Assembly (NCBI GenBank): GCA_963422395.1
Contig: OY729431.1
Coordinates: forward strand, 2,488,887-2,552,886
Length of the DNA stretch: 64,000 nt
Reading direction: 5' to 3'
From: Vicinamibacteria bacterium
Lineage (GTDB): Bacteria; Acidobacteriota; Vicinamibacteria; Marinacidobacterales; Marinacidobacteraceae
The notes below the pieces were generated by a model that had not been told where the DNA came from, did no database searches, and saw nothing but the letters and a program-made list of their open reading frames with translations. The translations under genes were made by a program, and so were the position numbers. Of this stretch, positions 32,583 to 48,849 are shown piece after piece; the stretch's first letter is position 1, and the number at the start of each line of letters is the position of its first letter.

Positions 32583-35018
32583 CTATCCGTGGCGAAGGGC
32601 GGCGATGGGTTGGATGCGGGCGGACCGGCGGGCGGGGATGATGCTGGCTAGCACCGCGGCGCCGAGCACGATGACGAGGGTTGCGACCCAGGACGAAGGG
32701 TCGGACGCCCGCACTCCGAAGAGCAGGCTCTGGAGCAGCCGACTCGCGAACAGCGCTCCGACGAGCCCGGCCGCAAGCCCGATGGCGGCGAGACGCATCC
32801 CCTCGCTCAGGATCAGCCGCGTCAACTCGGCGCGGCCGGCGCCGAAGGCCATCCGGACGCCGATTTCGGCGGTCCGTTCCGCAGCCAGTGCCGACACCAC
32901 GCTGTAAGACCCGGCAGCCGCGAGCGCCACCGCGAGGGCGGCGAACACCGTCAGCAGCAGCGCGAGGAAGCGCGAGTCCTGCAAGGAGTCGGCGAGCACT
33001 GCCTCCATGCTGCGGAAGCCGTCCACCGGAAGCGCCGGATCGAGCTCGTGGGCGGCTTCCCGCACCGGCACCGCCAGCGCCTCGGGCGGCAGCTCCGAGC
33101 GCAGAACCACATGCATCGCGCGCGGCGCGTAACCGGCGGCAGCGGCCGTTTGCGGGTAGTGGAAATAGACTTCGGTGCCGGTCTCGGCCCCGAGTCCGCC
33201 CTGTTTCACATCCTTGGCTACGCCGATCACGGTGAACCAGGGGATCTCGGAGCCGGGGGGCTTCAGCCGCCGTCCGATGGGATCCTGATCGGGCCAGAAC
33301 AGCTCCGCTGCCGTCCGGTTCACGACCGCGACCGGCGTCGCCCCGCCGTCGTCGGAGGGAGTGAAGCCGCGCCCGGCGAGCAGCGGGATCCCCATGGTCT
33401 CGAAGTAACCCGACCCGGCGAACTGCCAGTAATCCATGTTCTGCTCGGGATACCCCTCACTCTCGGGCAGGCCCTCGATCAGGGTGTCGTTCGCGTTCAG
33501 CCGCCGGCGCGGCGGCAGTCCGCTCATCATGGTGACGGCTTCTACCCCGGGAATCCGTTCGATCCGGGCGCTCAGCCGGTCGAGGAAGGCCAACTGGTCC
33601 GTCGACTCCGGGTAATCGGTTTCGGGTAGAAAGGTCTGGAAGGCCGAAAGCTCCGACGGCGCAAAGCCGGGGTCCTCGGCCTGGAGAGCGAAGAGGCTTC
33701 GCACCAGCAGCAGGGAGGAGATCAGCAGCACTGCCGACAGGCCGATCTCGAAAGCCACGAGCCCCTGACGCAGCCGCCGCCGCTTCGGGGTGGTGCGGAG
33801 CCCGCCCGACTGCAGGCTCGCGAGCAGCTGCGCCTCCTGGCGTCCGGTGGCGAGGTAGGCCGCCGGCGCCGCTCCGCTGACGAGACCGGTGATCAGCACC
33901 GCAGCGACGGCGAAACCCAGCACCGGCCACGAGATTCCGATCTCGGCGATCCGGGGGATCCCGCCGGGGTAGGCGGCGACGAGGGCTTCGGTGGCAGCCG
34001 CGGCGAGGAACACGCCGAGGGCGCCGCCGAGGCCGGCGACGATGAAGCCCTCGCCCAGGAACGGCATGGCACTCCGGAAGCGCCCCGAGCCGAGCGCGGT
34101 GCGCACGGCGATCTCGCCGCGCCGCGCCTCCGCCCGCCCGAGAACGAGATTCCCGAGGTTCGCGCAGGCGGCGAAGAGCAACACCCCGGAGAGCGCCAGC
34201 AGCGCGAGCAGTCGGGCGCTGTGCTCGCCGACCACCTCCTCATGCAGATCCACCAGGATCACTGGATGGAACTCGGGATGGGGAGCGTGGGTGTCCTGCG
34301 ACTCCGATCTCCAACGGTCGAGAAGCACCGGCAACTCCGCGCGGGCGGAATCCAGCCCGGCCCCCTCGGCGAGCCGGGCCACCATGATGTAGTTGTGGGA
34401 TCCCCGCCCCGGCAAGTCGGCGGGATCGAGCGCGAGCGGAGTCCAGACCTCGATGCGGTGGTCGAGCAGGTCCACGCCTTTCGGCAGCACACCGATGACG
34501 GTGTGCTGCACCCCGTCCACCAGGAGTCGGGTTCCGAGCACCCCCGGATCGGCGCCGAAGGCCCGCTGCCAGAGACCGTGAGAGAGGACGACGACCGGTT
34601 CGGTGCCTGGGCGATCTTCCTCTTCGCCGAAGACGCGCCCGAGAGCCGCCGAGATGCCGAGGGTGCGGAAGAGGCTGGCAGTGACAGCCGCCTCCTGGGC
34701 CCGGAAGGGCGCCCCGCCTCCCTGAAGCGAGGCCATCCCGGCATTGAAGGCCCCGGCCTCCTCGAAAGAGGAGCTCCACTCGCGGTATTCGAGGTATTCC
34801 GGCGCGGAGATCCAGAACTTGTCGAACCCCATGGTGGGGAACTGCGTCGCGACCCGGACCAGATCGTCGGGCGCCCGGTAGGGCAGCGGGGCGAAGAGCG
34901 CCGTGTTCACCACGGTGAAGACGGCGGTGTTGACACCGACGCCGAGAGCGATCACCAGGACCGCGAAGGCTGCGTAGCCGGGGTTCTTCAACAGCGAGCG
35001 AACGGCGGGGAATTTCAC
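32583..35018 (-). CDS. ADOP-family duplicated FtsX/MacB-like ABC transporter permease.
   Basis: FPAVRSLLKNPGYAAFAVLVIALGVGVNTAVFTVVNTALF is the ADOP N-terminal signature. Two FtsX-like 4-TM modules are separated by large periplasmic domains. The GTG start at 35018 is preceded by AGAGG. Confidence 0.8.
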   Translation of the reverse strand: MKFPAVRSLLKNPGYAAFAVLVIALGVGVNTAVFTVVNTALFAPLPYRAPDDLVRVATQFPTMGFDKFWISAPEYLEYREWSSSFEEAGAFNAGMASLQGGGAPFRAQEAAVTASLFRTLGISAALGRVFGEEEDRPGTEPVVVLSHGLWQRAFGADPGVLGTRLLVDGVQHTVIGVLPKGVDLLDHRIEVWTPLALDPADLPGRGSHNYIMVARLAEGAGLDSARAELPVLLDRWRSESQDTHAPHPEFHPVILVDLHEEVVGEHSARLLALLALSGVLLFAACANLGNLVLGRAEARRGEIAVRTALGSGRFRSAMPFLGEGFIVAGLGGALGVFLAAAATEALVAAYPGGIPRIAEIGISWPVLGFAVAAVLITGLVSGAAPAAYLATGRQEAQLLASLQSGGLRTTPKRRRLRQGLVAFEIGLSAVLLISSLLLVRSLFALQAEDPGFAPSELSAFQTFLPETDYPESTDQLAFLDRLSARIERIPGVEAVTMMSGLPPRRRLNANDTLIEGLPESEGYPEQNMDYWQFAGSGYFETMGIPLLAGRGFTPSDDGGATPVAVVNRTAAELFWPDQDPIGRRLKPPGSEIPWFTVIGVAKDVKQGGLGAETGTEVYFHYPQTAAAAGYAPRAMHVVLRSELPPEALAVPVREAAHELDPALPVDGFRSMEAVLADSLQDSRFLALLLTVFAALAVALAAAGSYSVVSALAAERTAEIGVRMAFGAGRAELTRLILSEGMRLAAIGLAAGLVGALFASRLLQSLLFGVRASDPSSWVATLVIVLGAAVLASIIPARRSARIQPIAALRHG

Positions 35019-35103
35019 TGGGGCGCCTCTCGTTGACCAGATAGAACGATTCCGGCTGGCTGGAGGTTCATCGAGCCGCGGCCTCGCCGTTATGCTCGGC
35101 GGC

Positions 35104-35655
35104 ATGGACATCCGCCGGAGGTTTTCCCGGGGAATCGCCGCGCTCCCGATCCTCCTGGGCGCGCTCCTCCCGGGTACAGCGGCGGCCCATGAGGAATCGG
35201 AGGAGGCGTTGGTCGCGGCCCGGTGGTTCCGGCTCGTCGAGGGACTCGACGGGAGCGAGGCGAGCCGGGAAGCGTTCCTCGCTCTCTATGCCGAAGACGC
35301 GCTCCATATCCAGGGACCCTCCGGACCGCACCAGCGGGGAAGCGCCGCCTACTGGGGACGGGAGAAGGTGGGCCTCCTCGTGGACCGGCTGCTCGCCGAG
35401 TGGACGGACCACTCGATCCGTCCCGAAGTGGCCACCGCCGCCGAGGTCTCGGAGACGGTCTGGGCCGAGGCCCCGGGCCCCTGGGGCGGCCCCTTGGTCG
35501 CCGTCCAGTTCACGATCACCGGCACCCGCGTCGCCGACGAGACCCGCTGGCAGGTTCCGGGAGCGGCCTTCTTCCGAATCCGAGGCGGGGAACTGGTGCG
35601 GGTGCGGATCTACCTGGGACTCGGAGAAGCCGCCGAAGTCGAAATCCAGCGGTGA
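35104..35655 (+). CDS. Hypothetical secreted protein (NTF2/SnoaL-like size and composition).
   Basis: Signal peptide MDIRRRFSRGIAALPILLGALLPGTAAAHE. About 160 aa mature. No catalytic motifs recognised. Confidence 0.45.
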   Translation: MDIRRRFSRGIAALPILLGALLPGTAAAHEESEEALVAARWFRLVEGLDGSEASREAFLALYAEDALHIQGPSGPHQRGSAAYWGREKVGLLVDRLLAEWTDHSIRPEVATAAEVSETVWAEAPGPWGGPLVAVQFTITGTRVADETRWQVPGAAFFRIRGGELVRVRIYLGLGEAAEVEIQR

Positions 35656-38146: not shown

Positions 38147-38447
38147 GTCAGGGTCTCCTCAGGATCTCCGGGAAGCGCACCGACCAGCGAGCACCGCGAA
38201 CCGGAGAGGCCCCGGACGCTATCCGCTCGCGAGCCGAGCCGTCAATGGCCACTCGGGGGCTGCGCCGGGGGAGCTTCGGACAGGCGGTCGCAGGGGAGCG
38301 GACCGAGGCCCCACGGAAAGCTGCTCTTCCCGCCTATAGAAGAGGATGTTGCGCTTGCTTCGCAGGGGCTCGATGGGTGTCCCCGCATGGATGACGATTT
38401 TTGTCCAGGTGATCGAGTATCCTGTCTTGCTTCAGACCCTCTCTGCG

Positions 38448-40700
38448 ATGCCTTCTCGATCTGATCACTATTTCGCGCACAGCGCCCCCTCCGAAAACCC
38501 GTCCTCGTGGCACCGGCTGGACGACCACCTCCGGCACACCGGAGACCGCGCCGCCGGCTTCCTCGAACGGGTCGGGCTCGCCCACTTCGGTCGGGCCGCC
38601 GGGCTCCTCCATGACCTCGGCAAGTACACCGAGAAGTTCCAGCAGAGGCTCCGCGGCGGCCCGCGCGTGAATCATTCGACAGCCGGAGCCAAAATCGCGT
38701 GCGAACGCTATCCAGGCATCATCGGAAAAATGCTGGCATTCGGTGTTGCCGGCCATCACGCGGGACTTGCGAATGGTGTGAACGGCGAGAAAATCACTGC
38801 CCTCGCCGATCGGTTGCGCGAAAACACCCCCGAACTCGACCCGTTATGGAGCCAGGAAATACAACTCCCGCCGCTTGGTCCACCGCAGATCCAGAGCCGC
38901 AGTCGGGAGAACGCCGGATTTTCCGGGTCGTTCCTGATCCGCCTGCTGTTCTCGGCCCTGGTGGACGCAGACTATCTCGATACCGAGGCCTATTACGCAA
39001 GAATCGAGAAAACGAGTCCGAGTCGCGGAGGCCACCCCTCACTCGGAATACTTCGCGACCGCCTCGATGCCCACCTCGAAGGGCTCACCGCGCGGGCCTC
39101 GGCCAGCGAAGTGAACGCGCTCCGCCGCGAAGTGCTGCACCACGCCAGAAAACGGGCAGTGGACACGCCCGGCCTCTTCACTCTCACGGTACCTACCGGC
39201 GGCGGCAAGACCCTCACTTCACTGTCGTTCGCCCTCCACCACGCCGTGCACCACGGGCTCGACCGGATCCTCTATGTCATCCCGTACATGAACATCATCG
39301 AACAGACGGCCGCTGTTTTCCGCGATGTCCTGCAAGACGACGAATCCGAGGGGCCGCACTTCGTGATCGAGCATCACAGCACCTTCGACGAGCAGCGAGT
39401 CGAGAAACGTTCCGGTAAAGAGAAACTCCGTCTCGCGATGGAGAATTGGGACGCTCCCATCGTGGTCACCACCGCCGTCCAGTTCTTCGAGAGCCTTTTC
39501 TCGAACCGCCCGTCCCGCTGCCGAAAACTGCACAACATCGCTGGCAGCGTCGTCGTCCTAGATGAGGCGCAGACTCTTCCCCTCGAATTCCTGCGCCCCT
39601 GCGTCGCCGCGATGGATGAGCTGGCGCGGAATTGGCGCGCCACCGTCGTCCTCTGCAGTGCCACGCAGCCGGCGCTGCGCGAGGAGAGCGGCTTCTGTGG
39701 CGGATTGCGCGAAGTGCGTGAACTCGCACCCCAACCGACTCGGCTCCAGCGAAGCCTAAAGCGAACTCGTATCCACCAAAAAGGCCCGATGGAGGACTCC
39801 GAGATCACCGAACGATTGCGTGGAACGCCGCAGGCACTTTGCATCGTCAACACGCGGGCCCACGCACGGGCTCTGTACGAAGCAATCGAAGATCAGGATG
39901 GGGCCACGCACCTCACCACTTCGATGTGCGCCCGTCACCGTCGGGAGATTCTGGAAGAAGTCCGCTCCCGGCTGACGATCGGTGAACCGATTCGGTTGAT
40001 CGCCACCTCACTGGTCGAAGCCGGGGTGGACCTGGATTTTCCGGTCGTTTGGCGTGAGGAAGCAGGCCTCGAATCCATCATCCAGGCGGCAGGACGATGC
40101 AATCGGGAAGGGAAAGCGCCGTCCGGAGATGTGATCGTGTTCCGTTCGCAAGCCGGTGGTCGAGGATTGCCCGAGATACGGAAGGCCGCAGACGCTGCGC
40201 GCCAGGTCCTCCGGAAGCACCAGGATCCCATGTCTCTGCCCGCCATCCAGGAGTATTTCCAGACGCGCTACTGGATCGAAGGAGATAATGCCTTGGACAC
40301 CAAGGGGATCCTTCCCATGCTCCGTGAACGGAAAAGGAGTCTCGACTTTCCTTTCGAAACGATCTCTCGTGCGTTCTGCCTGATCGAAACACCCATGGCC
40401 CCGGTGATCGTCCCCTACAGAGGCCGAGAGGGGAAAGACAGAACCGCAGACCGCCTGATCGCCGCTCTCGAGCATGAAGAGCGCCCCGGCTGGCTGGCGC
40501 GTAGTCTGCAGCCGTACACGGTCCCCGTTCCGCTGCTCGGCCGGAAATCTCTACTGGACTCCAGGGCCGCCCGGATCATCCGGGAGGCCGATTTCGACGA
40601 ACAGTTCGTCGTCCTCGACAACCGAGACATCTATCGGGCGGACATCGGCCTCACCTGGGACGATCCAAGCTTTCACAGCGTCGAGGGGCTGATCTGTTGA
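38448..40700 (+). CDS. cas3: CRISPR-associated helicase/nuclease Cas3 (HD domain plus SF2 helicase).
   Basis: The HD motifs HYFAHS and LLHDLGKY are at the N-terminus. Helicase motifs VPTGGGKT and VLDEAQ follow. The start is assigned to ATG 38448 (MPSRSDHYFAHS). The track start at 38346 adds non-conserved residues. Confidence 0.95.
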   Translation: MPSRSDHYFAHSAPSENPSSWHRLDDHLRHTGDRAAGFLERVGLAHFGRAAGLLHDLGKYTEKFQQRLRGGPRVNHSTAGAKIACERYPGIIGKMLAFGVAGHHAGLANGVNGEKITALADRLRENTPELDPLWSQEIQLPPLGPPQIQSRSRENAGFSGSFLIRLLFSALVDADYLDTEAYYARIEKTSPSRGGHPSLGILRDRLDAHLEGLTARASASEVNALRREVLHHARKRAVDTPGLFTLTVPTGGGKTLTSLSFALHHAVHHGLDRILYVIPYMNIIEQTAAVFRDVLQDDESEGPHFVIEHHSTFDEQRVEKRSGKEKLRLAMENWDAPIVVTTAVQFFESLFSNRPSRCRKLHNIAGSVVVLDEAQTLPLEFLRPCVAAMDELARNWRATVVLCSATQPALREESGFCGGLREVRELAPQPTRLQRSLKRTRIHQKGPMEDSEITERLRGTPQALCIVNTRAHARALYEAIEDQDGATHLTTSMCARHRREILEEVRSRLTIGEPIRLIATSLVEAGVDLDFPVVWREEAGLESIIQAAGRCNREGKAPSGDVIVFRSQAGGRGLPEIRKAADAARQVLRKHQDPMSLPAIQEYFQTRYWIEGDNALDTKGILPMLRERKRSLDFPFETISRAFCLIETPMAPVIVPYRGREGKDRTADRLIAALEHEERPGWLARSLQPYTVPVPLLGRKSLLDSRAARIIREADFDEQFVVLDNRDIYRADIGLTWDDPSFHSVEGLIC

Positions 40701-40948
40701 ACCGGCAGGGATCCGTTCCAACGCAGCGAGGTGGAGTTGCGGCTTCCCCGGAGACCTCCTGGAATTCGGGTTCCTCACCATGCGAACGAAAAGAGCCATC
40801 CTTCCCAGCCATGACGGGGGCCACCCGCTCCCAACGAGTCGCAGCACGGGGACTGAAACGGATGGCGAGTACCGATGAGGACTGTCGTCCCCGGCTCGCC
40901 CGGGGACTCGGATCGACGGAGAGTACAGAAGTTCGGGGGAGGAAGACG

Positions 40949-41150
40949 ATGCCCGACTCCACTCATGAATGGCCGGAAAGTCCTTCGGACTCTGGAGCGC
41001 CAAGGATTCGAATGCGTGCGCCGGCGGGGAAGCCACCGCATCCTTCGAACCTCTGCCAGAGGCAGCGAACGGGTGACAGTCGCCGGGAAATAAGGCGACG
41101 AGCTACGGAAGGGAACCCCGGTGGCGGTCTCCTTCGACCTGCTACCACCA
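40949..41150 (+). pseudogene. hicA-like mRNA-interferase toxin remnant, with an in-frame stop and a probable frameshift.
   Basis: MNGRKVLRTLERQGFECVRRRGSHRILRTSARGSERVTVAGK*GDELRKGTPVAVSFDLL aligns with the HicA family pattern (LeklGfelvrqkGSH...vtvP.H.gkdl..GTlrsIlkqagL). A TAA interrupts it at 41091..41093. A strong SD (GGGGGAGGAAG) serves an ATG at 40949 that is out of frame with the HicA frame at 40965. Confidence 0.4.
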
Positions 41151-41244
41151 AGAGAGCTTTCCACTGCCGCCGCCTCGACTGCAGCGTACCGGGAACGACC
41201 CCGGAGCGGCTGATGCGGGGCGGACTTCTCGCCGGGGCGGCCTG

Positions 41245-41916
41245 ATGTCGTACGGAGCAAGACTCCATGTGTGGGGCGATTACGCATGTTTCACTCGCCC
41301 CGAGATGAAGGCCGAGCGCGTCTCCTACGACGTCATGACACCGTCGGCAGCGCGTGGAATTCTGGAAGCGATCCATTGGAAGCCGGCGATCCGGTGGATC
41401 GTGGATCGGATCCAGGTGTTGAAACGGATCCGGTTCGAAACGATTCGAAGAAACGAACTCGGAAGCAAGATTCCGGCAGGAAACATCAGCGTCGCGATGC
41501 AGCGCGGCGACACCGGAGGTCTCGCCGTCTCGATCGAAAGCGACCGGCAGCAGCGCGCCGCCACCGTACTGCGCGATGTCGCTTATCTCATCGAAGCGCA
41601 CTTCATCCTCACACCCGTTGCAAACCCAGACGATACTCCGGCGAAACACGCCGCGATGTTCCACCGGCGCGCCGCTCGAGGGCAGTGCTTCCACCGACCG
41701 TATCTGGGGACCCGCGAGTTCCCGGCCCACTTCGCCCCGGTCCCGGATCCGCCGCCATCATCCTCCCTACCGACCGATCAGTGTGATCGTGATCTAGGCT
41801 GGATGCTGCACGACCTCGACTACGCGAATGCCGCGTCGCCCAGATTCTTCCGCGCAACGCTCCGGAATGGCGTGGTGCATGTCCCGCCGCTTGATTCAGA
41901 GGAGGTCAAGGGATGA
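41245..41916 (+). CDS. cas5c: Cas5c (Cas5d), type I-C.
   Basis: MSYGARLHVWGDYACFTRPEMKAERVSYDVMTPSAARGILEAIHWKP is the canonical Cas5d N-terminus. The stop overlaps the cas8c start (ATGA). Confidence 0.95.
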   Translation: MSYGARLHVWGDYACFTRPEMKAERVSYDVMTPSAARGILEAIHWKPAIRWIVDRIQVLKRIRFETIRRNELGSKIPAGNISVAMQRGDTGGLAVSIESDRQQRAATVLRDVAYLIEAHFILTPVANPDDTPAKHAAMFHRRAARGQCFHRPYLGTREFPAHFAPVPDPPPSSSLPTDQCDRDLGWMLHDLDYANAASPRFFRATLRNGVVHVPPLDSEEVKG

Positions 41917-43682
41917 GCATCCTCCAAGCACTCATCCAGCGCTATGAGCGACAGGCAGCACGCGACCAGGCGCCGAAGTACGGCTTTTCGGAGCAGAAAA
42001 TTTCCTATGCAATAGTAATCGATCGGAGCGGTCAGGCCATCGACACGATCGATCTGAGGGATACGAGCGGGAAGAAGCCGCGGCCCAGCAAACGCGAAGT
42101 GCCGAATCCCGTAGTCCGTACCGCCAAAATCCAACCCCAATTCCTGTGGGACAAGACTGCCTATGCCCTTGGAGTCAAGAAAGCCCAAACAGGTTCCGCA
42201 GTCCCCGCCGAACGGGGAGAGTACGATGCTTTCGTTTCCTGCCATCGGAAACTCCTCTCCTGTTCCGAAGATGATGGGCTCCAGGCATTTCTCGCCTTCC
42301 TCGATAACTGGCGGCCCGATCGCTACAGTGACCTCCGGAACAGCGACGACATGTTGGACACCAATGTCGTTTTTCGTTTCGAAGCCGATTCCAAATCGTT
42401 CTTGCACGACCGCCCGGCGGCGCGGGAAATCTGGGTGCGACTTCTGACAGGAAACGAGACCGAGCGACATCTGTGCCTGGTGACCGGCGAGCAACTCTCG
42501 ATAGCCCGGGTGCACTCCAAGATCAAGGGTGTCCGGGGCGCCCAGACTTCCGGGGCATCGATCGTCTCCTTCAACCAGAAGGCATTCAATTCTTTCGGAA
42601 AGGAACAGGGCGGGAACGCGCCGATCTCGGATCGCGCTGCTTTCGCATACACCACCTCACTGAACTCCCTTCTCGCCCGAGGCAGCCGCAATCGAATCCA
42701 GATCGGCGATACGACGACTGTGTTCTGGGCAGACTCCGGAGACGATCCAGAGAGTGCCGAAGCCGCCGATAGCCTGTTCTCTGCGCTCATGGGCGCGCCG
42801 CCGACCGACGAAGAAGAGGCAGCAGTGGTCCGGGACAAAGTCGAAAAATTTCAAGCCGGGCGTCCGGTCGAATCTGTCGAGCCGGGCGTTCAGGAGGACA
42901 CGCGCTTCTTCGTTCTTGGTCTCGCACCCAATGCGGCGCGCCTTTCCGTCCGATTCTGGCATGAAGACACGATCGGCCGCATGGGAGAACGGCTTCGAGA
43001 GCACTGGGGCGATCTTCATATCGAACCGGTCCCTTGGCACACGCCCCCGGATGCTTGGCGGCTCCTGCGCGAGACCGCCATTCAGGGCAAGTCGGAGAAA
43101 ATACCGCCAGTGCTCAGCGGCACGCTCATGAGCGCGATCCTCCGGGGCAGCAGATACCCTCGATCGTTGTTGGCCAATGTATTGCTGCGGATGCGCTCCG
43201 ACGGCAACATCAATGGGTTGCGTGCTGCGATCTGCAAGGCATGTCTCGCCCGCGACCATCGCTTCGGTCTCGAAGAGGAGGCACTCCCCGTGAGTCTAAA
43301 CCCCGACGAAAAAAACCCGGCCTATCGCCTCGGCAGACTGTTCGCCATCTATGAAGGCGTTCAGCAGGCCGCGATGGGACGACGGGTGAACGTGACGATC
43401 AAGGATCAGTTCTACGGATCCGCGTCCGCCACCCCGGCCGCGGTCTTTCCGGTAATCAACCGGAAGGCCGCCCACCACCTCGGATCCCTTCGCAAGGACA
43501 AAGGGGGGTTGGCCGTCTGGTACGAACGACACCTGGACGCGGTATTCGATGGCTTCGAGACGGCGTTCCCGCGCAGCCTCGGGATCGAGGAACAGGGCCG
43601 CTTCACCATCGGCTATTACCACCAGCGGGCAAGCCTCAAAGGGAAGCCCGCCAACGACAGCGTCGAGACGCCGGAGGAATGA
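41913..43682 (+). CDS. cas8c: Cas8c (Csd1) large subunit, type I-C.
   Basis: [14 protein letters not shown]... 589 aa, positioned between cas5c and cas7c, with Csd1-like conserved blocks. Confidence 0.95.
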
Positions 43683-44623
43683 ACATCATGTCAGCAATCC
43701 GTAACCGATACGATTTCGTGTATCTGTTCGACATCTCCAACGGAAACCCCAACGGAGATCCCGATGCCGGAAACCTGCCCCGGCTCGATCCAGAAACCAA
43801 CCAGGGTCTCGTCACCGATGTGTGCCTCAAGCGAAAGATTCGAAATTTCGTCACGATGACGAAGGGGGGCGAACCACCGTATGGAATCTATATCGCCGAG
43901 CGTGCCGTGCTGGAGCGGCTGCAGCAGCGTGCCTGGGATGCGATCGTCCCGGACGCCAGCGACGAAGCTCGGAAAAAGTTGCCGAAAGACGAGGCAAAGG
44001 CGCGAAAACTGACCCGATGGATGTGCGACAATTTCTTCGATGTACGGACATTCGGCGCGGTGATGTCCACGAAGGGCGCCAACTGCGGCCAGGTCCGGGG
44101 GCCAGTCCAGTTCTCGTTCGGCCGATCCGTTGAACCGATCGTCCCGCTGGAGGTTTCGATCACCAGGATGGCGGCGACCACACAGAAGGACGCCGACGAG
44201 AAGGGCGATGTTCGCACGATGGGGCGCAAGTACATCGTGCCGTACGGTCTGTATCGCGCCCACGGCTTCGTCTCGGCATGCCTGGCCGGAAACGGTGCCG
44301 GGGGAACCGGCTTCTCGCAAGAAGACCTGGATCTGGTGTGGACCGCCCTCGAACAGATGTTCGATCACGACCGCTCCGCGGCAAGGGGCGAGATGACAGC
44401 CCGCCGTCTCATCATATTCCGCCACGAGAGCACGCTCGGCAACACCGCCGCCCACCGACTCTTCGACCGCGTCCGGGTTTCGCGGATCCACGAGGAGCAG
44501 GAAGCCTCCCTCGGTGCACCTGCTTCACGGAGCCTGCCCCCGGCACGGTCGTACTCCGATTACTCCGTTGTCGTGGATGCCGAAAACCTTCCTGAAGGGA
44601 TCACGATCCTGGATCGGATCTGA
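43679..44623 (+). CDS. cas7c: Cas7c (Csd2) backbone subunit, type I-C.
   Basis: [51 protein letters not shown] is the Csd2 signature. Confidence 0.95.
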
Positions 44624-45273
44624 TGTGCGGCGAGGACACCGATGCCGCGGCGCCCATCTCCGAGAACGAACTCGTCCCGATTTCCGCTCTTCAACACCTG
44701 CTCTACTGTCCCCGGCAGTGCGCGCTGATCCATGTCGAGCGCCTGTGGATGGAGAATCGATTCACCGCCGAGGGTCGCATCCTCCACAACAAGGTCGAAA
44801 AAGCCGCTTCGGATCGCCGTTTCGGCGTCCAAACCGAGCGCAGCGTTCCCCTGCGATCCTGGCGCCTCGGCGTCTTCGGGATCGCCGATGTGGTTGAAGT
44901 TCACGACGATGGGTGCGTATTTCTCGTGGAGTACAAGCGAGGCCGTCCCAAGCAGCATCGCGCCGATGAAGTGCAACTCTGTGCACAGGCGATCTGTCTC
45001 GAAGAGATGCTGGATCGACAGATTCCCGGAGGTGCCTTGTTCTACGGCCGCACCCGCCGCCGGACGCCGGTCGTCTTCGATGCGGCACTCCGAGGCCTCA
45101 CCGAGCGCACAGCCAGGGGCGCCCGAAAAATGATCGCAACCGGGGTCACGCCCGCTCCGATCTATGAATCCTGGAAGTGCGAACCTTGTTCGCTGAAGGT
45201 CGTCTGTAAGCCCGAAAAAATGCAGCAGACCGCCACAGTCGAATCGTGGCTGGAGGAAGCGCTCGCTGACTGA
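44623..45273 (+). CDS. cas4: Cas4 RecB-like exonuclease with an Fe-S cluster.
   Basis: The N-terminal Cys (LLYCPRQ) and the C-terminal cluster WKCEPCSLKVVC are present, with a RecB nuclease motif. The TGATG overlap with cas7c indicates coupling. Confidence 0.95.
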   Translation: MCGEDTDAAAPISENELVPISALQHLLYCPRQCALIHVERLWMENRFTAEGRILHNKVEKAASDRRFGVQTERSVPLRSWRLGVFGIADVVEVHDDGCVFLVEYKRGRPKQHRADEVQLCAQAICLEEMLDRQIPGGALFYGRTRRRTPVVFDAALRGLTERTARGARKMIATGVTPAPIYESWKCEPCSLKVVCKPEKMQQTATVESWLEEALAD

Positions 45274-45281
45274 GCACCACA

Positions 45282-46322
45282 GTGCGCCGCCATCTGAACA
45301 CGCTCTATGTCACGACCGAAGGGGCGATGCTCCACAAGGACGGAGAGAACGTCGTCGTTCGCGTCGAACGGGAAGAACGATGTCGCGTACCGTTTCACAT
45401 CGTGGATGGGATCGTTTGTTTCGGCGCCGTCGGCGTCACCCCATCTCTGATCGCACACTGCGCGAAATTCGGGATAACCCTGTCTTTTCTGAGTTGGACT
45501 GGCCGATTCTCCGCTCGGGTCGAGGGGCCGGTATCGGGCAATGTGTTACTTCGACGCACTCAGTATCGGCGTGCCGACGACCCTGTAGGAACGGCCGCAT
45601 TGGTGAGAAGTTTTCTGACTGGCAAACTGGTCAACCAGCGGGCTGTAATTCGGCGAGCCCTTCGTGACCATCGGTCGAAACTCACCGCGGACTTCGAACA
45701 ACGACTGGTGACCTGCGAACGACGACTCACCGGCTCGATTCGGCGCGCATCGAAAGGCACCGATACAGATTCTCTGAGGGGAATCGAGGGAGAAGCGGCG
45801 CGCTCGTACTACGGCGTGTTCGAATGTCTGATTCTGCGCGACCGATCATCACTCACATTCGCTCGTCGCTCTCGCCGTCCGCCAATGGATCCGGTCAACG
45901 CATTGCTTTCCTTCCTCTACACACTGCTGGTCCACGACTGTCGCTCGGCACTCGAATCCGTGGGTCTCGATCCCGCAGTCGGCTATCTGCACCGTGATCG
46001 ACCCGGACGACCAAGTCTCGCACTCGACCTGGTAGAGGAGCTCCGTCCAGTCATCGCCGACCGCCTTGCTCTGTCCATGATCAATCGGCGTCAAATTCTC
46101 CCGGGAGATTTCGAGACCGCAGTCAGCGGAGCGGTCAACATGAGCGAGAAAGCTCGCAAGGTATTACTCGTTGCCTACCAAGAACGCAAGCGTGACGAAA
46201 TCACCCATCCATTCCTCGGTGAGAAGACCACTGTTGGACTCGTTCCATTCTTGCAAGCAACAATAATGGCACGCTGTCTGCGCGGAGATCTAGACGCTTA
46301 TCCTCCCTTCCTCTGGAAGTAA
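45282..46322 (+). CDS. cas1: Cas1 integrase.
   Basis: 346 aa. LNTLYVTTEGAMLHKDGENVVV is the Cas1 N-terminus, and the conserved catalytic region is present. Confidence 0.95.
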   Translation: MRRHLNTLYVTTEGAMLHKDGENVVVRVEREERCRVPFHIVDGIVCFGAVGVTPSLIAHCAKFGITLSFLSWTGRFSARVEGPVSGNVLLRRTQYRRADDPVGTAALVRSFLTGKLVNQRAVIRRALRDHRSKLTADFEQRLVTCERRLTGSIRRASKGTDTDSLRGIEGEAARSYYGVFECLILRDRSSLTFARRSRRPPMDPVNALLSFLYTLLVHDCRSALESVGLDPAVGYLHRDRPGRPSLALDLVEELRPVIADRLALSMINRRQILPGDFETAVSGAVNMSEKARKVLLVAYQERKRDEITHPFLGEKTTVGLVPFLQATIMARCLRGDLDAYPPFLWK

Positions 46323-46330
46323 TACAAATC

Positions 46331-46621
46331 ATGCTGATTCTGGTCACCTATGATGTTGCAACTCAGAGCAGCGAGGGGCGACGGCGCCTGCGCCGCATTG
46401 CTCGGCATTGCAAAAACTACGGGCAGCGCGTCCAGTATTCCGTCTTCGAATGTCTGGTGGACCCGGCTCAGTGGACCGCCCTTCGGGCGGCCCTCCTCGC
46501 CGAGATGGATCCTGCCGAAGACAGCCTTCGGTTCTACCGACTGGGGTCGAACTGGAGACCTCGGATCGAGCATGTGGGGGCCAAGCGATCCTACGACCCC
46601 GACGCCCCATTGGTGATGTGA
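46331..46621 (+). CDS. cas2: Cas2.
   Basis: MLILVTYDVATQSSEGRRRLRRIARHCKNYGQRVQYSVFEC. 96 aa. Canonical. Confidence 0.95.
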   Translation: MLILVTYDVATQSSEGRRRLRRIARHCKNYGQRVQYSVFECLVDPAQWTALRAALLAEMDPAEDSLRFYRLGSNWRPRIEHVGAKRSYDPDAPLVM

Positions 46622-46800
46622 TCGGTGCGAACCCGTAGCGGTAGCCACTGACCAAAGCTTTCGCACAATTCGAAAATCATTATATTTCAACGAATTAGAC
46701 GAGCTATTCCACCCTGGTAATAGCTAGACTCCAACGGCTGGAGCAGGTTCGCACAAAGAGGCGGAATCTGCCAAGAGCCACCAGCAGATATATTCCTGCG
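46622..46800 (+). promoter_or_regulatory. CRISPR leader.
   Basis: A 179-bp AT-rich stretch (aaaatcattatatttcaacgaattagacgagctattccaccctggtaatagctagact) lies between cas2 and the first repeat. The array's degenerate repeats are at the distal end, which supports this polarity. Confidence 0.6.
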
Positions 46801-48849
46801 GTCGCCCCCCGCACGGGGGGCGCGGATTGAAACTTCTGGAATCGCACATTGGAGACATTGAATGCGGTGTCGCCCCCCGCACGGGGGGCGCGGATTGAAA
46901 CCGTGAGGCTGTCCAGGATCTCTCCTGCTATGTATGGTCGCCCCCCGCACGGGGGGCGCGGATTGAAACTCCTTTGCCGGCTTGCCGGCGGTTGATGTTG
47001 GAGTCGCCCCCCGCACGGGGGGCGCGGATTGAAACATCGCAGTCCGCGCATTTCCTCGCGTCGCTCTTTGTCGCCCCCCGCACGGGGGGCGCGGATTGAA
47101 ACGCACGCTGGGGCAGGAAAGCCGAAGAGCTCTATGTCGCCCCCCGCACGGGGGGCGCGGATTGAAACTCATCGAACCGGGGGCAAGCCCCCCAAAGGAA
47201 AAAGTCGCCCCCCGCACGGGGGGCGCGGATTGAAACATCGTGTTTTTCCTTTGCCGGCGGGCTGCCGGCGTCGCCCCCCGCACGGGGGGCGCGGATTGAA
47301 ACTGATCAGGATTGACAATCGCTAGCCGACTGCGCGACGTCGCCCCCCGCACGGGGGGCGCGGATTGAAACGAGTGAACGGAACGCCATTCGCGTAGGCA
47401 GCCGAGTCGCCCCCCGCACGGGGGGCGCGGATTGAAACTCGTCTGTACGGCGTGCTGGGCAGCCCGTAGGGCAGCGTCGCCCCCCGCACGGGGGGCGCGG
47501 ATTGAAACTCGTGTACGGGCTGGTCAGCCCGCCCAGCCCAGCGTCGCCCCCCGCACGGGGGGCGCGGATTGAAACAGTGGGGTGCCGCCGCCGCGCAGTC
47601 CGCGCAAAGTCGCCCCCCGCACGGGGGGCGCGGATTGAAACCCTCTCTGGTCGCGATCATCGGCAGTCTGCCGCGTCGCCCCCCGCACGGGGGGCGCGGA
47701 TTGAAACCCCACTTACTGCCACGCTGCCCTACCCCATGCGTCGCCCCCCGCACGGGGGGCGCGGATTGAAACCATATCCGCATCGCATTCCGCGCAGGCC
47801 TTCACGGTCGCCCCCCGCACGGGGGGCGCGGATTGAAACTATTCCATCCGGACTTGGTCCGACACCGCCTTGAGTCGCCCCCCGCACGGGGGGCGCGGAT
47901 TGAAACCACTTCCTGCTGACTGCGGCAGTCGGCATCTTGGTCGCCCCCCGCACGGGGGGCGCGGATTGAAACTTTGTCTCCTCCTCGATTTCCGCCCATC
48001 GGCGAAGGACGTCGCCCCCCGCACGGGGGGCGCGGATTGAAACTCCTTTGGCGGCCGGCGGCCGCCGTGTTGTTTGAGTCGCCCCCCGCACGGGGGGCGC
48101 GGATTGAAACGCTAGGCGGGCGTTGGATTTGCGCCTCCCGCCGCCGGTCGCCCCCCGCACGGGGGGCGCGGATTGAAACGTTGGATGCGGCCCGGACCAA
48201 AGCTCCTTGCATGCGTCGCCCCCCGCACGGGGGGCGCGGATTGAAACCTCCTTTCGGCGGCCGGCGGCCTCCGTGTTTGAGTCGCCCCCCGCACGGGGGG
48301 CGCGGATTGAAACGGTTGCGATTCGTGGAGTATGTCTGCTCGAATCGGGTCGCCCCCCGCACGGGGGGCGCGGATTGAAACCCTTCATCGCAACCGAACA
48401 CCGCCCCCGGCGGCGTCGCCCCCCGCACGGGGGGCGCGGATTGAAACCTTTGGCGCCGGGTTAGGCGCCGGTTTGATTCGCGTCGCCCCCCGCACGGGGG
48501 GCGCGGATTGAAACCAAGTGCACCTTGCCGGAGTGCTTTGAGGACCTGGGTCGCCCCCCGCACGGGGGGCGCGGATTGAAACTTCCTGGATTCGCGGCGA
48601 TGATGCCGTGTTTCCTGTCGCCCCCCGCACGGGGGGCGCGGATTGAAACCGCGCGCGTGTCTGTCCCTAGTGGGGACGAGCTGCGTCGCCCCCCGCACGG
48701 GGGGCGCGGATTGAAACGCCAAAGCATCGCTGACGCTCGCGAAGCCCGCGGTCGCCCCCCGCACGGAGGGCGCGGATTGAAACTCCATGGATTGGCGCCG
48801 AGGAACCGGTGTTCCCGTCGCCCCCCGCGCGGGGGGCGCGGATTGAAAC
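46801..48849 (+). CRISPR. Type I-C CRISPR array: 31 repeats of the 33-bp GTCGCCCCCCGCACGGGGGGCGCGGATTGAAAC and 30 spacers of 32-38 bp.
   Basis: Repeats start at 46801, 46869, 46937, 47003, 47070, 47136, 47204, 47270, 47339, 47406, 47476, 47543, 47609, 47675, 47740, 47807, 47874, 47940, 48011, 48078, 48147, 48215, 48281, 48349, 48415, 48482, 48550, 48617, 48685, 48751 and 48817. The last two carry point mutations (GGAGGG and GCGC). The repeat forms a 7-bp GCCCCCC/GGGGGGC hairpin. Confidence 0.97.

What the first reader, a model, noticed from the sequence alone, without database searches (positions are those of the whole stretch)
46970..48280. Four spacers target the same or near-identical protospacer region, consistent with primed acquisition
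Spacer 3 (46970..47002, tcctttgccggcttgccggcggttgatgttgga), spacer 7 (47237..47269, atcgtgtttttcctttgccggcgggctgccggc), spacer 19 (48044..48077, tcctttggcggccggcggccgccgtgttgtttga) and spacer 22 (48248..48280, ctcctttcggcggccggcggcctccgtgtttga) share the core tcctttg(c/g)cggc...gccggcgg with small substitutions and register shifts. Spacers 10 and 11 (47439..47475 and 47509..47542) are also about 70% similar to each other. Repeated sampling of overlapping, slightly diverged sites is the signature of primed adaptation against an evolving invader, or of escape mutants.
Basis: seen in the sequence. Interest (0 to 1): 0.5.

Follow-up and report, generated by a model that had tools for sequence, protein, structure and literature searches.

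The report
Related CRISPR spacers sampling one hairpin module
A normal type I-C CRISPR array has repeatedly stored different versions of one short hairpin-containing DNA module from an unidentified invader, and a sister strain with no shared spacers has done the same, so this is recurrent sampling of a repeated or variable element and not one site chased by escape mutants.

Summary
Spacers 3, 7, 19 and 22 share TCCTTT + a GC hairpin, and so do spacer 25 and spacer 6 (reverse orientation). Eleven comparisons score >=24 against 0.36 expected from dinucleotide shuffles.

The spacers are not near-identical copies of one protospacer. Hairpin stems differ with compensating changes, lengths differ by 1-3 nt, and the 3' flanks fall into several classes.

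A sister strain (97-99% nt identity around the array, 57 spacers, none shared) holds ten more distinct members of this family. It also holds relatives of spacers 10/11, 15 and 17. About 2% of spacer pairs are related, within and between the two arrays, versus 0.1-0.2% in control arrays.

Best reading: an active I-C system keeps capturing copies or alleles of one structured intergenic module. The module is a T-rich tract (TTT/TTC PAMs; Shine-Dalgarno-like on the other strand), a 6-8 bp GC hairpin and a T-rich tail. It would sit on a polymorphic, probably small or hot-spot-dominated mobile element.

Priming may contribute, because related spacers lie somewhat closer together than chance. It cannot be shown, because no protospacer turned up in phage, plasmid, viral, genome or metagenome searches.

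This is an ordinary system with a moderately unusual spacer repertoire.

The parts
38346..46621 (+). Type I-C cas operon: cas3 38346-40700, unassigned 182-aa ORF 40697-41245, cas5c 41245-41916, cas8c 41913-43682, cas7c 43679-44623, cas4 44623-45273, cas1 45282-46322, cas2 46331-46621
   Evidence: NCBIfam hits above the curated cut-offs for Cas5c, Cas8c/Csd1, Cas7/Csd2, Cas4, Cas1c, Cas2 and the Cas3 HD and helicase domains
46622..46800 (+). Leader, AT-richer, between cas2 and the first repeat
   Evidence: Read directly from the sequence. The degenerate repeats lie at the opposite end of the array, so new spacers enter at this end
46801..48849 (+). CRISPR array: 31 repeats of 33 nt and 30 spacers of 32-38 nt. 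The last two repeats (48751-48783, 48817-48849) each carry one mismatch
46970..47002 (+). S3, family A: TCCTTTG + hairpin GCCGG-CTTG-CCGGC + GGTTGATGTTGGA
   Evidence: passes the lenient terminator scan
47169..47203 (+). S6, family A in reverse orientation: TCATCGAACC + GGGGGCAAGCCCCC + CAAAGGAAAAA. Closest relative is T49 of the sister strain
   Evidence: (score 50 with T49)
47237..47269 (+). S7, family A, register 10 nt upstream of S3: ATCGTGTTTT|TCCTTTG + GCCGGCGGGCTGCCGGC. It shows TTT immediately upstream of the TCC start used by S3 and S19
48044..48077 (+). S19, family A: TCCTTTG + GGCGGCC-GGC-GGCCGCC + GTGTTGTTTGA
48248..48280 (+). S22, family A, closest to S19 (86%; one substitution, two indels, register shifted by 1 nt)
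48448..48481 (+). Its start is the register expected directly after a TTC PAM
47439..47542 (+). S10 (47439-47475) and S11 (47509-47542), family B. They differ by an in-frame 3-nt indel. The reverse strand reads GLPSTPY versus GLTSPY, so the target is probably coding. Sister-strain T6 is a third allele
   Evidence: S11-T6 score 45; the translation was read by eye
47036..47069 (+). S4, family C. It shares (AT)CGCAKTCCGCGCA with S12 (47576-47608) and S15 (47773-47806), with unrelated flanks. S15 has a 30/34 relative, T7, in the sister strain
48583..48816 (+). S27 (48583-48616) and S30 (48784-48816), family D: 76% identical over their whole length, register offset 1 nt
47907..47939 (+). S17: the same site as sister-strain spacer T31 (32 of 33 nt identical, different ends, different neighbours), so captured independently

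Best explanation
The related spacers are independent captures of different copies and/or alleles of one short structured intergenic module, made by an active type I-C adaptation module (Cas1-Cas2-Cas4). The source would be an unidentified, polymorphic mobile element, or a family of them, that repeatedly challenges this species.

Module, on the spacer strand:
- a T-rich tract, (T)TTTTCCTTT(G/C). It supplies TTC and TTT PAMs and reads (C/G)AAAGGAAAAA, Shine-Dalgarno-like, on the other strand
- directly followed by a 6-8 bp GC hairpin whose stem and loop vary
- then a T-rich tail containing TTGA.

Shown:
- the similarity is real and non-random
- every member keeps the hairpin despite different stems
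- the members are not the same sequence
- a second strain of the same species with a completely different array has sampled the same families.

Inferred:
- the source is foreign DNA
- the module occurs in several copies per element (at least five flank classes, four of them seen in both strains) as well as in several alleles per copy
- it is over-sampled because the element is small (capture-recapture suggests on the order of 130-170 effective sites, roughly 4-6 kb if sampling were even) or because the module is an acquisition hot spot
- partial cross-matching between copies may add priming on top.
For: The system is a complete I-C locus with a polarised array.

Similarity exceeds shuffles by about 30-fold.

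All 16 family members fold into a 6-8 bp GC hairpin at the same place, with several different stems (GCCGG, GGGGG(G), GGCGG(CC), GGCGCC, GCCGGC) and many different loops (alignment). Distances between the conserved flanks differ by 1-3 nt, so the region is non-coding (read).

Sister strain L020 is 97.4% and 98.8% identical in the flanks. It has 57 spacers and shares none with the window. It nevertheless holds family A members T4=T5, T17, T21, T26, T39, T41, T49, T50, T53 and T55b, plus relatives of S11, S15 and S17.

Rate of related pairs: 2.07% within the window array, 2.03% within L020 and 1.91% between them. Control arrays give 0.2% within L046/L047 (same synteny, 76% nt identity) and about 0.1% between either strain and those controls. 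Seven of the nine arrays with the identical repeat from other phyla show no pair at this level.

The first 29 of the 31 repeats are identical, so the differences between spacers were not made inside the array.

Overlapping members give TTT upstream of the TCC-starting spacers, and TTC upstream of T17; S25's start register also fits TTC. TTC is the canonical type I-C PAM. TTT is a documented alternative for acquisition, and TTC, CTC, TCC and TTT are functional for interference (Rao et al. 2017, PMC5602111, read).

The same paper describes a strong I-C acquisition hot spot that depends on the internal sequence of the protospacer. [quoted passage not shown]

Spacers of the two strains are more structured than those of control arrays even without family A (mean z -0.55 versus -0.10, p = 0.005).
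Against: No protospacer was found, so the foreign origin, the copy number per element and the element's size are all inferred.

The split into paralogous copies versus alleles rests on 6-13 nt of flank per spacer.

Capture-recapture assumes even sampling. Strong hot spots on a large phage would give the same numbers.

The module's features (hairpin, T-tract, SD-like motif) are generic. Some of the resemblance could therefore be analogy between unrelated intergenic sites. A metagenome scan with the module pattern returned the same architecture upstream of unrelated bacterial genes.
Confidence: 0.55

Rival explanations
1. Primed adaptation against escape mutants. An older spacer partly matches a mutated invader, Cas3-driven priming loads new spacers, and these include re-captures of the mutated site.
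For: Related spacers lie closer in the arrays than random (p = 0.011 and 0.033). S6/S7, S10/S11, T49/T50 and T39/T41 are adjacent or nearly so. S22 (older) and S19 (newer) are 86% identical. Type I-C systems prime robustly. A multi-copy module would let one spacer partly match several sites.
Against: Most members differ by whole stems, indels and flanks, not by the seed or PAM point changes typical of escape. Family members are spread over the whole array and were acquired independently in two strains. Priming usually yields spacers spread over kilobases around the priming site, not repeated captures of the same 35 nt (Rao 2017; otherwise general knowledge). Strand and position relative to a priming site cannot be examined without a target.
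Confidence: 0.25
2. Analogy, not homology. The spacers come from unrelated terminator/RBS regions. In GC-rich DNA, T-rich PAMs concentrate next to such hairpins, so the captured sequences look alike.
For: The module's parts are generic. A metagenome scan for TTTTCCTTTCGGCGG-loop-CCGCCG returned 22 loci from unrelated organisms. In many of them the module lies just upstream of an ATG on the other strand. Three of the six window members pass a lenient terminator scan.
Against: Two control arrays of related GC-rich organisms with the same cas type (129 spacers) show almost no such spacers. Flanks beyond the PAM are conserved: TCCTTT is exact in 12 of the 14 members that cover it (TCCTTC and TCCTCT in the others), and the 3' classes recur in both strains. 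The stem GGCGG/CCGCC is shared by 10 of 16 members. Non-hairpin families (S10/S11/T6, S15/T7, S17/T31) recur between the strains as well. That needs a shared source.
Confidence: 0.12
3. Chance resemblance caused by GC-rich composition.
For: The spacers are 63% GC. One other GC-rich array (L006) shows mildly raised scores that come from CG-rich low-complexity sequence.
Against: Dinucleotide-preserving shuffles give 0.36 comparisons >=24 against 11 observed, and never reach 46. The same families recur in a second array.
Confidence: 0.01
4. Duplication of spacer-repeat units inside the array, followed by mutation.
For: The sister strain has three adjacent exact duplicates: T4=T5, T37=T38 and T51=T52.
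Against: The first 29 of the 31 repeats in the window array are identical, so in-array mutation is negligible. It cannot produce 15-30% divergence with compensating stem changes in the spacers between those repeats. Members also differ in register and orientation.
Confidence: 0.02
5. The module is a repeat of the host's own chromosome (REP-like), captured as self spacers.
For: Only 64 kb of a contig of about 2.9 Mb could be inspected.
Against: No copy of TCCTTTG+GC-run, or of any spacer, occurs in the 64-kb window or in the about 83 kb of related host loci held. The best match is 17 of 18 nt. The genome-collection scan with a general module pattern found nothing. Perfect self-targets would be toxic for an intact I-C system (general knowledge).
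Confidence: 0.05

Closest known systems
Type I-C (Dvulg/Csd) CRISPR-Cas loci with GTCGC...ATTGAAAC repeats
   Same: Gene order cas3-cas5c-cas8c-cas7c-cas4-cas1-cas2 followed by the array. 33-nt repeat with a GC hairpin and an ATTGAAAC 3' end. Spacers of 32-38 nt, a broad length range as described for Legionella I-C. The identical repeat is found in Verrucomicrobiota, Kiritimatiellia and Proteobacteria MAGs.
   Different: Nothing essential. There is an extra unassigned 182-aa ORF between cas3 and cas5c.
Primed adaptation and the acquisition hot spot in the Legionella pneumophila type I-C system (Rao et al. 2017, PMC5602111)
   Same: PAM use (TTC canonical, TTT alternative), slipped and flipped spacers, and a hot spot that depends on the protospacer's internal sequence and possibly on ssDNA structure. 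Here the over-sampled module is a hairpin next to TTT/TTC.
   Different: That work mapped millions of laboratory acquisitions onto a known plasmid. Here the target is unknown. The pattern is seen in natural arrays and involves many sequence variants of the site, not one hot protospacer.
Recurrent targeting of one episome (LME-1) by different L. pneumophila strains and CRISPR types (Rao et al. 2016, PMC5071653; listed, content recalled from my own knowledge)
   Same: Different strains with different arrays converge on the same mobile element, indicating a recurrent challenge.
   Different: There the element is known and the spacers are spread over it. Here about 18% of all spacers fall on one 45-50 nt module type and the element is unidentified.
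Repeated short intergenic motifs of phage genomes, such as stoperators and start-associated sequences of mycobacteriophages (recalled from my own knowledge, not tested here)
   Same: A short motif present many times in one mobile genome, next to gene starts. This would explain several related but non-identical protospacers per element.
   Different: No sequence relation was tested or is expected. Whether the present module is multi-copy on one genome is inferred only from flank classes.

Membership tests
Type I-C CRISPR-Cas locus | Signature genes cas8c (Csd1), cas5c and cas7c (Csd2), with cas3, cas4, cas1 and cas2 in one operon | tested here: met
   NCBIfam hits above cut-off: TIGR01863 572 bits, TIGR01876 192 bits, TIGR02589 360 bits, TIGR03640 (Cas1c) 499 bits
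Type I-C CRISPR-Cas locus | Adjacent array of direct repeats with a GC stem and an ATTGAAAC 3' end | tested here: met
   31 repeats of 33 nt directly downstream of cas2. That this repeat type is typical of I-C is from my own knowledge, supported by its co-occurrence with I-C cas genes in the loci
Type I-C CRISPR-Cas locus | 5'-TTC PAM upstream of protospacers | tested here: inconclusive
   No protospacer was found. From overlapping related spacers the upstream triplet is TTC for T17, S25's start register fits TTC, and the triplet is TTT for the TCC-starting members. Both are documented I-C PAMs
Primed-adaptation signature | New spacers map to the same replicon as an older, partly matching spacer, with a strand bias and a distance gradient | not testable with these tools
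   No target in phages, plasmids, IMG/VR, GTDB genomes or JGI metagenomes. The 13:3 orientation bias of family A can be explained by where T-rich PAMs lie
Primed-adaptation signature | Related spacers acquired in bursts, so adjacent in the array | tested here: inconclusive
   Mean distance between related spacers is smaller than in permutations (p = 0.011 and 0.033). The number of pairs within 2 positions is not significant (p = 0.32 and 0.055), and the family spans the whole array
Same protospacer with escape mutations | Spacers collinear and near-identical, differing by a few point substitutions (seed or PAM) | tested here: not met
   Identities are 71-86%, with indels, exchanged stems, different loops and different 3' flanks
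Intrinsic (Rho-independent) terminator | GC-rich hairpin followed by a T-run on the transcribed strand | tested here: inconclusive
   The hairpin is present in 16 of 16 members. A lenient scan (at least 5 T in 8) calls S3, S19 and S25 on the spacer strand. The tails (GGTTGATG, GTGTTGTTTGA) are not clean T-runs, and the other strand has an A-rich tail
Intrinsic (Rho-independent) terminator | Position at the 3' end of a gene | not testable with these tools
   The genomic context of the source is unknown

The most novel reading that the evidence does not exclude
The two strains record an undescribed small (a few kb), fast-evolving mobile element of an Acidobacteriota-like host. Its genome would carry several copies of a hairpin + ribosome-binding-site cassette. 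Alternatively, or in addition, this I-C adaptation complex has an intrinsic preference for capturing hairpin-forming DNA next to T-tracts, i.e. structure-directed spacer choice. Either would explain three things: 18% of 87 spacers fall on one module, nearly half of all spacers have a relative, and the spacers as a whole are unusually structured.
Probability: 0.25. Interest if true: 0.6.

Novelty: new member of a known kind. Interest (0 to 1): 0.35.

Why it matters
If the reading is right, the array is a compact record of a long arms race between one bacterial species and one polymorphic element absent from every sequence collection searched. The 26 module-bearing or otherwise recurrent spacer sequences can serve as probes to fish that element out of the source metagenomes.

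The data also give a natural example of a structured, T-flanked site being heavily over-sampled by a type I-C system. That bears on the open question of what makes an acquisition hot spot, which Rao et al. 2017 raised but did not resolve.

It does not change what is known about CRISPR mechanisms.

Tried and rejected
1. Self-targeting. No spacer and no module copy occurs in the masked window or in the held host loci of relatives.

2. Known phages and plasmids. All 30 window spacers and all 54 distinct sister-strain spacers were run by blastn (word 11, E <= 10). Only chance-level hits appeared. Two hits to small phage records looked suggestive. One turned out to be a conserved-looking coding stretch and the other the coding region of a microvirus pilot gene, without the module.

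3. Eight IMG/VR pattern scans:
- S19/S22 core, S3/S6 core, a general module pattern, the CGGCGG sub-family pattern, the S17/T31 core and the T14/T24 core gave 0 hits.
- The S10/S11 pattern gave 2 hits, at about the number expected by chance. One lies in a tail-fibre-like ORF that shares GLPSPYT. I did not rely on it.
- The S4/S15/T7 pattern gave 4 hits with no support from other spacers.

4. A genome-collection scan with the general module pattern gave 0 hits.

5. The metagenome scan gave 22 loci that match only the pattern part. No other spacer hits them.

6. Chance or composition was rejected by shuffles and control arrays.

7. An idea that many spacers retain part of the TTC PAM (starts TC/TTC, ends GA) was not significant against controls.

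8. Rfam found nothing in the window.

9. Exact-protein look-ups for Cas1, Cas7, Cas8c and Cas5c found no contig. Only Cas2 and CutA did.

10. A literature search for the repeat sequence found nothing.
Full report
**What is there.**
The finding lies inside a CRISPR array at 46801-48849 on the + strand. The array has 31 copies of the 33-nt repeat GTCGCCCCCCGCACGGGGGGCGCGGATTGAAAC and 30 spacers of 32-38 nt. Only the last two repeats carry a mismatch, so the leader is the 179 nt next to cas2.

Directly upstream lies a complete type I-C operon: cas3, an unassigned 182-aa ORF, cas5c, cas8c, cas7c, cas4, cas1 and cas2. All the cas genes hit their NCBIfam models above the curated cut-offs.

The host is GC-rich (about 68%). 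It is probably an Acidobacteriota member, for two reasons. The window encodes an ADOP-family duplicated permease (TIGR03434, 805 bits). The nearest named Cas2 relatives are annotated as Acidobacteria MAGs. This is an inference, not a determination.

**Check of the observation.**
I compared all 30 spacers on both strands by local alignment.
- Eleven comparisons score >=24, against a mean of 0.36 (maximum 3) in 200 dinucleotide-preserving shuffles.
- S19/S22 score 46, whereas no shuffle exceeded 30.
- Overlap identities are 86% for S19/S22, 83% for S3/S7, 71% for S3/S19 and 72% for S10/S11.

The family is larger than reported. S25 belongs to it, and S6 is the same module captured from the opposite strand. 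There are also other families:
- S10/S11 differ by an in-frame 3-nt indel.
- S4/S12/S15 share CGCAKTCCGCGCA in otherwise different sequence.
- S27/S30 are 76% identical.

**Anatomy of the family.**
On the spacer strand every member reads as follows:
- T-rich tract ending in TCCTTT(G/C)
- a GC hairpin of 6-8 bp
- a T-rich tail containing TTGA: GGTTGATG..., GTGTT(GTT)TGA or GGTTTGA...

On the other strand the first part reads (C/G)AAAGGAAAAA, which is Shine-Dalgarno-like. S7 continues it as AAAGGAAAAACACGAT. If S7's PAM is TTC, this gives an ATG eight bases after AAGGA; that step is inference.

All six window members and all ten distinct sister-strain members fold into the hairpin. The stems, however, differ (GCCGG/CCGGC, GGGGG/CCCCC, GGCGGCC/GGCCGCC, GGCGCC/GGCGCC), with both arms changed together. 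The loops also differ. The distance between the conserved flanks varies by 1-3 nt, so the region is not protein-coding.

A lenient terminator scan calls S3, S19 and S25 on the spacer strand. The tails are not clean T-runs, so I call the module 'terminator-like' and no more.

**These are not versions of one protospacer.**
Even the closest pair, S19/S22, differs by one substitution and two indels. The other pairs differ in whole stems, loops and 3' flanks.

The first 29 of the 31 repeats are identical, so the differences cannot have arisen inside the array. They were present in the source DNA.

**A sister strain gives the key control.**
The window's Cas2 is encoded, residue for residue, on one other retrievable contig: ENA ERZ21742408 ctg4073l, locus L020.

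L020 has the same operon and the same downstream genes (CutA, haem oxygenase). It is 97.4% identical over the cas genes and leader and 98.8% over the downstream flank. That makes it another strain of the same species.

Its array has 58 repeats and 57 spacers, and not one spacer is identical to a window spacer. Yet it contains ten more distinct family A members: T4=T5, T17, T21, T26, T39, T41, T53 and T55b on one strand, and T49 and T50 on the other. It also contains:
- T6, a relative of S10/S11
- T7, 30 of 34 nt identical to S15
- T31, 32 of 33 nt identical to S17 but with different ends and different neighbours.

The proportion of spacer pairs scoring >=24 is as follows:
- 2.07% within the window array
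- 2.03% within L020
- 1.91% between the two
- 0.2% within the arrays of two related organisms with the same synteny (L046/L047, 129 spacers, about 76% nt identity)
- about 0.1% between either strain and those controls.

Seven of the nine arrays from other phyla with the identical repeat have no pair at this level. One array (L016) holds a near-duplicate adjacent pair. One GC-rich array (held as L006/L012) has a few borderline, mostly low-complexity matches.

In total, 42 of the 87 spacers of the two strains have a relative, and 16 (18%) fall in family A. S25 is not counted in these 16.

A third sample (Logan run ERR11641160) carries the window's own two oldest spacers. The window strain is therefore seen more than once.

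**What this implies.**
By their 3' flanks, family A members fall into at least five classes. Four of these occur in both strains, and several occur as two alleles within one array (for example T17 and T26). This was read.

The simplest account is a module present in several copies on one kind of mobile element, which itself exists as many sequence variants. Both strains keep sampling it.

I treated flank classes and the other families as 'sites'. The window array then has about 27 sites, L020 about 47, and they share 7-9. A Chapman capture-recapture estimate gives roughly 130-170 effectively available sites.

The spacers' own base composition implies about one TTC or TTT per 25-40 bp, counting both strands. 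On that basis the estimate corresponds to only about 4-6 kb of evenly sampled target. This is my own arithmetic.

So either the element is small, or a larger one is sampled very unevenly. With about six module copies on a 40-kb phage, roughly 1% of spacers would be expected from the module, not 18%.

**PAM and orientation.**
Overlapping relatives reveal the bases upstream of some members. The members that start at TCC are preceded by TTT. T17 is preceded by TTC, and S25's start register also fits TTC.

In the Legionella type I-C system, TTC accounts for about 90% of acquisitions and TTT is a genuine alternative PAM. Slipped and flipped spacers make up several percent. TTC, CTC, TCC and TTT all support interference in Bacillus halodurans I-C (Rao et al. 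2017, PMC5602111).

The 13:3 orientation bias of family A is therefore what one would expect from T-rich PAMs lying on one side of the hairpin. It does not by itself indicate priming.

The same paper describes a dominant acquisition hot spot that depends on the protospacer's internal sequence. It speculates about ssDNA secondary structure, and the present module fits that idea.

The spacers of these two strains are more structured than those of control arrays even when family A is left out (mean z -0.55 versus -0.10, Mann-Whitney p = 0.005).

**Priming.**
None of the 84 distinct spacers has a credible match in any of these:
- the phage or plasmid collections
- eight IMG/VR pattern scans
- a scan of 185,579 species genomes
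- the JGI metagenome scan
- the held host DNA.

The metagenome scan returned 22 loci that match only the generic part of the pattern. In many of them the hairpin sits just upstream of AAAGGAAAA and an ATG on the other strand (for example ...CGGCGGTTGCACCCGCCGAAAGGAAAACAGAAATGAAAAAG). This supports reading the module as a hairpin + ribosome-binding-site unit. It also shows that the architecture is generic.

Indirect evidence on priming is mixed. Related spacers lie closer together in the arrays than in permutations (p = 0.011 and 0.033), and S6/S7 and S10/S11 are adjacent. However, the excess of near-adjacent pairs is not significant, and the family extends over positions 3-25 and 4-55.

I conclude that priming may contribute. 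One route is cross-matching between module copies. But the dominant signal is recurrent, independent sampling of a variable, repeated module.

**Comparison with what is known, and novelty.**
The locus is a regular type I-C system. The identical repeat occurs in Verrucomicrobiota, Kiritimatiellia, Alpha- and Gammaproteobacteria MAGs.

Repeated targeting of one element by different strains is known, for example LME-1 in Legionella (Rao et al. 2016, listed, content from my own knowledge). So are acquisition hot spots.

Three things are unusual here: the share of the repertoire devoted to one 45-50 nt structured module, the number of its variants, and the absence of the source from all collections searched.

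I rate this as a new member of a known kind, with moderate interest. The most novel reading still open is an undescribed small element with a repeated hairpin/RBS cassette, or structure-directed spacer capture. I give it about one chance in four.

Noticed in passing
window 46834-48816 and L020 9808-13606 (all spacers): Spacer ends are biased in these two strains but not in 251 control spacers from related or identical-repeat arrays. Without family A: the first base is almost never A (3/68 versus 82/251, p = 3e-7). The fourth base from the 3' end is a pyrimidine (57/68 versus 133/251, p = 3e-6). The second from the end is G (33/68 versus 72/251, p = 0.003). This could reflect a trimming or integration preference, or the make-up of the target.
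   Followed up: partly
window 40697-41245 (+): A 182-aa ORF lies between cas3 and cas5c, overlapping both by a few bases. It has no Pfam or NCBIfam hit. It is conserved in the sister strain (183 aa, L020 3658-4209), and a 212-aa ORF occupies the same position in L047.
   Followed up: partly
L003-L019 (genome collection loci): Exactly the same 33-nt repeat occurs in arrays of Pontiella (Kiritimatiellia), Akkermansiaceae and Chthoniobacteraceae (Verrucomicrobiota), and in Alpha- and Gammaproteobacteria MAGs. Their cas genes are only about 65-76% identical to the window's. The repeat is therefore far more conserved than the genes, or it moves between phyla.
   Followed up: partly
window 47036-47069, 47576-47608, 47773-47806; L020 10204-10237: S4, S12, S15 and T7 share the 13-15 nt motif (AT)CGCAKTCCGCGCA. 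In S4 and S12 the flanks are otherwise unrelated, which suggests a second short repeated motif on the target.
   Followed up: partly
L020 11281-11313 and 11549-11583: Spacers T23 and T27 cover the same 28 nt from opposite strands. T23 contains TTC at positions 3-5, and T27 ends exactly at that TTC. This looks like a flipped and slipped pair of captures from one prespacer site.
   Followed up: no
L020 10006-10102, 12222-12324, 13166-13266, 13434-13535: The sister array has three adjacent exact spacer duplicates (T4=T5, T37=T38, T51=T52) and one repeat with a 1-nt insertion (seven G instead of six).
   Followed up: no
L054 1211-1402 (Logan ERR11641160): A third sample carries the window's two oldest spacers (S29, S30) with the same two degenerate terminal repeats next to CutA. 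The window strain or a close relative is therefore present in another data set.
   Followed up: yes
L021, L031, L036, L039 (JGI metagenome contigs): In an unrelated organism (GC about 0.5) the same hairpin + AAAGGAAAA + ATG(AAAAAG...) unit recurs two to three times per locus, about 1.3 kb apart in L031, L036 and L039 and about 1.8-1.9 kb apart in L021. This suggests a tandem gene family, each copy preceded by the same leader hairpin.
   Followed up: no
window 32583-35111 (-): An ADOP-family duplicated permease (TIGR03434, 805 bits). This family is typical of Acidobacteria and was used here only as a hint to the host's phylum.
   Followed up: partly
L046 8300-14700 and L047 8300-12250: Related organisms from one ENA sample (ERZ19489113) carry very long arrays (about 84 and 49 repeats) in the same genomic position (cas2 ... 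CutA, haem oxygenase). Their repeats differ by 1-2 nt from the window's, and they show no spacer families.
   Followed up: partly
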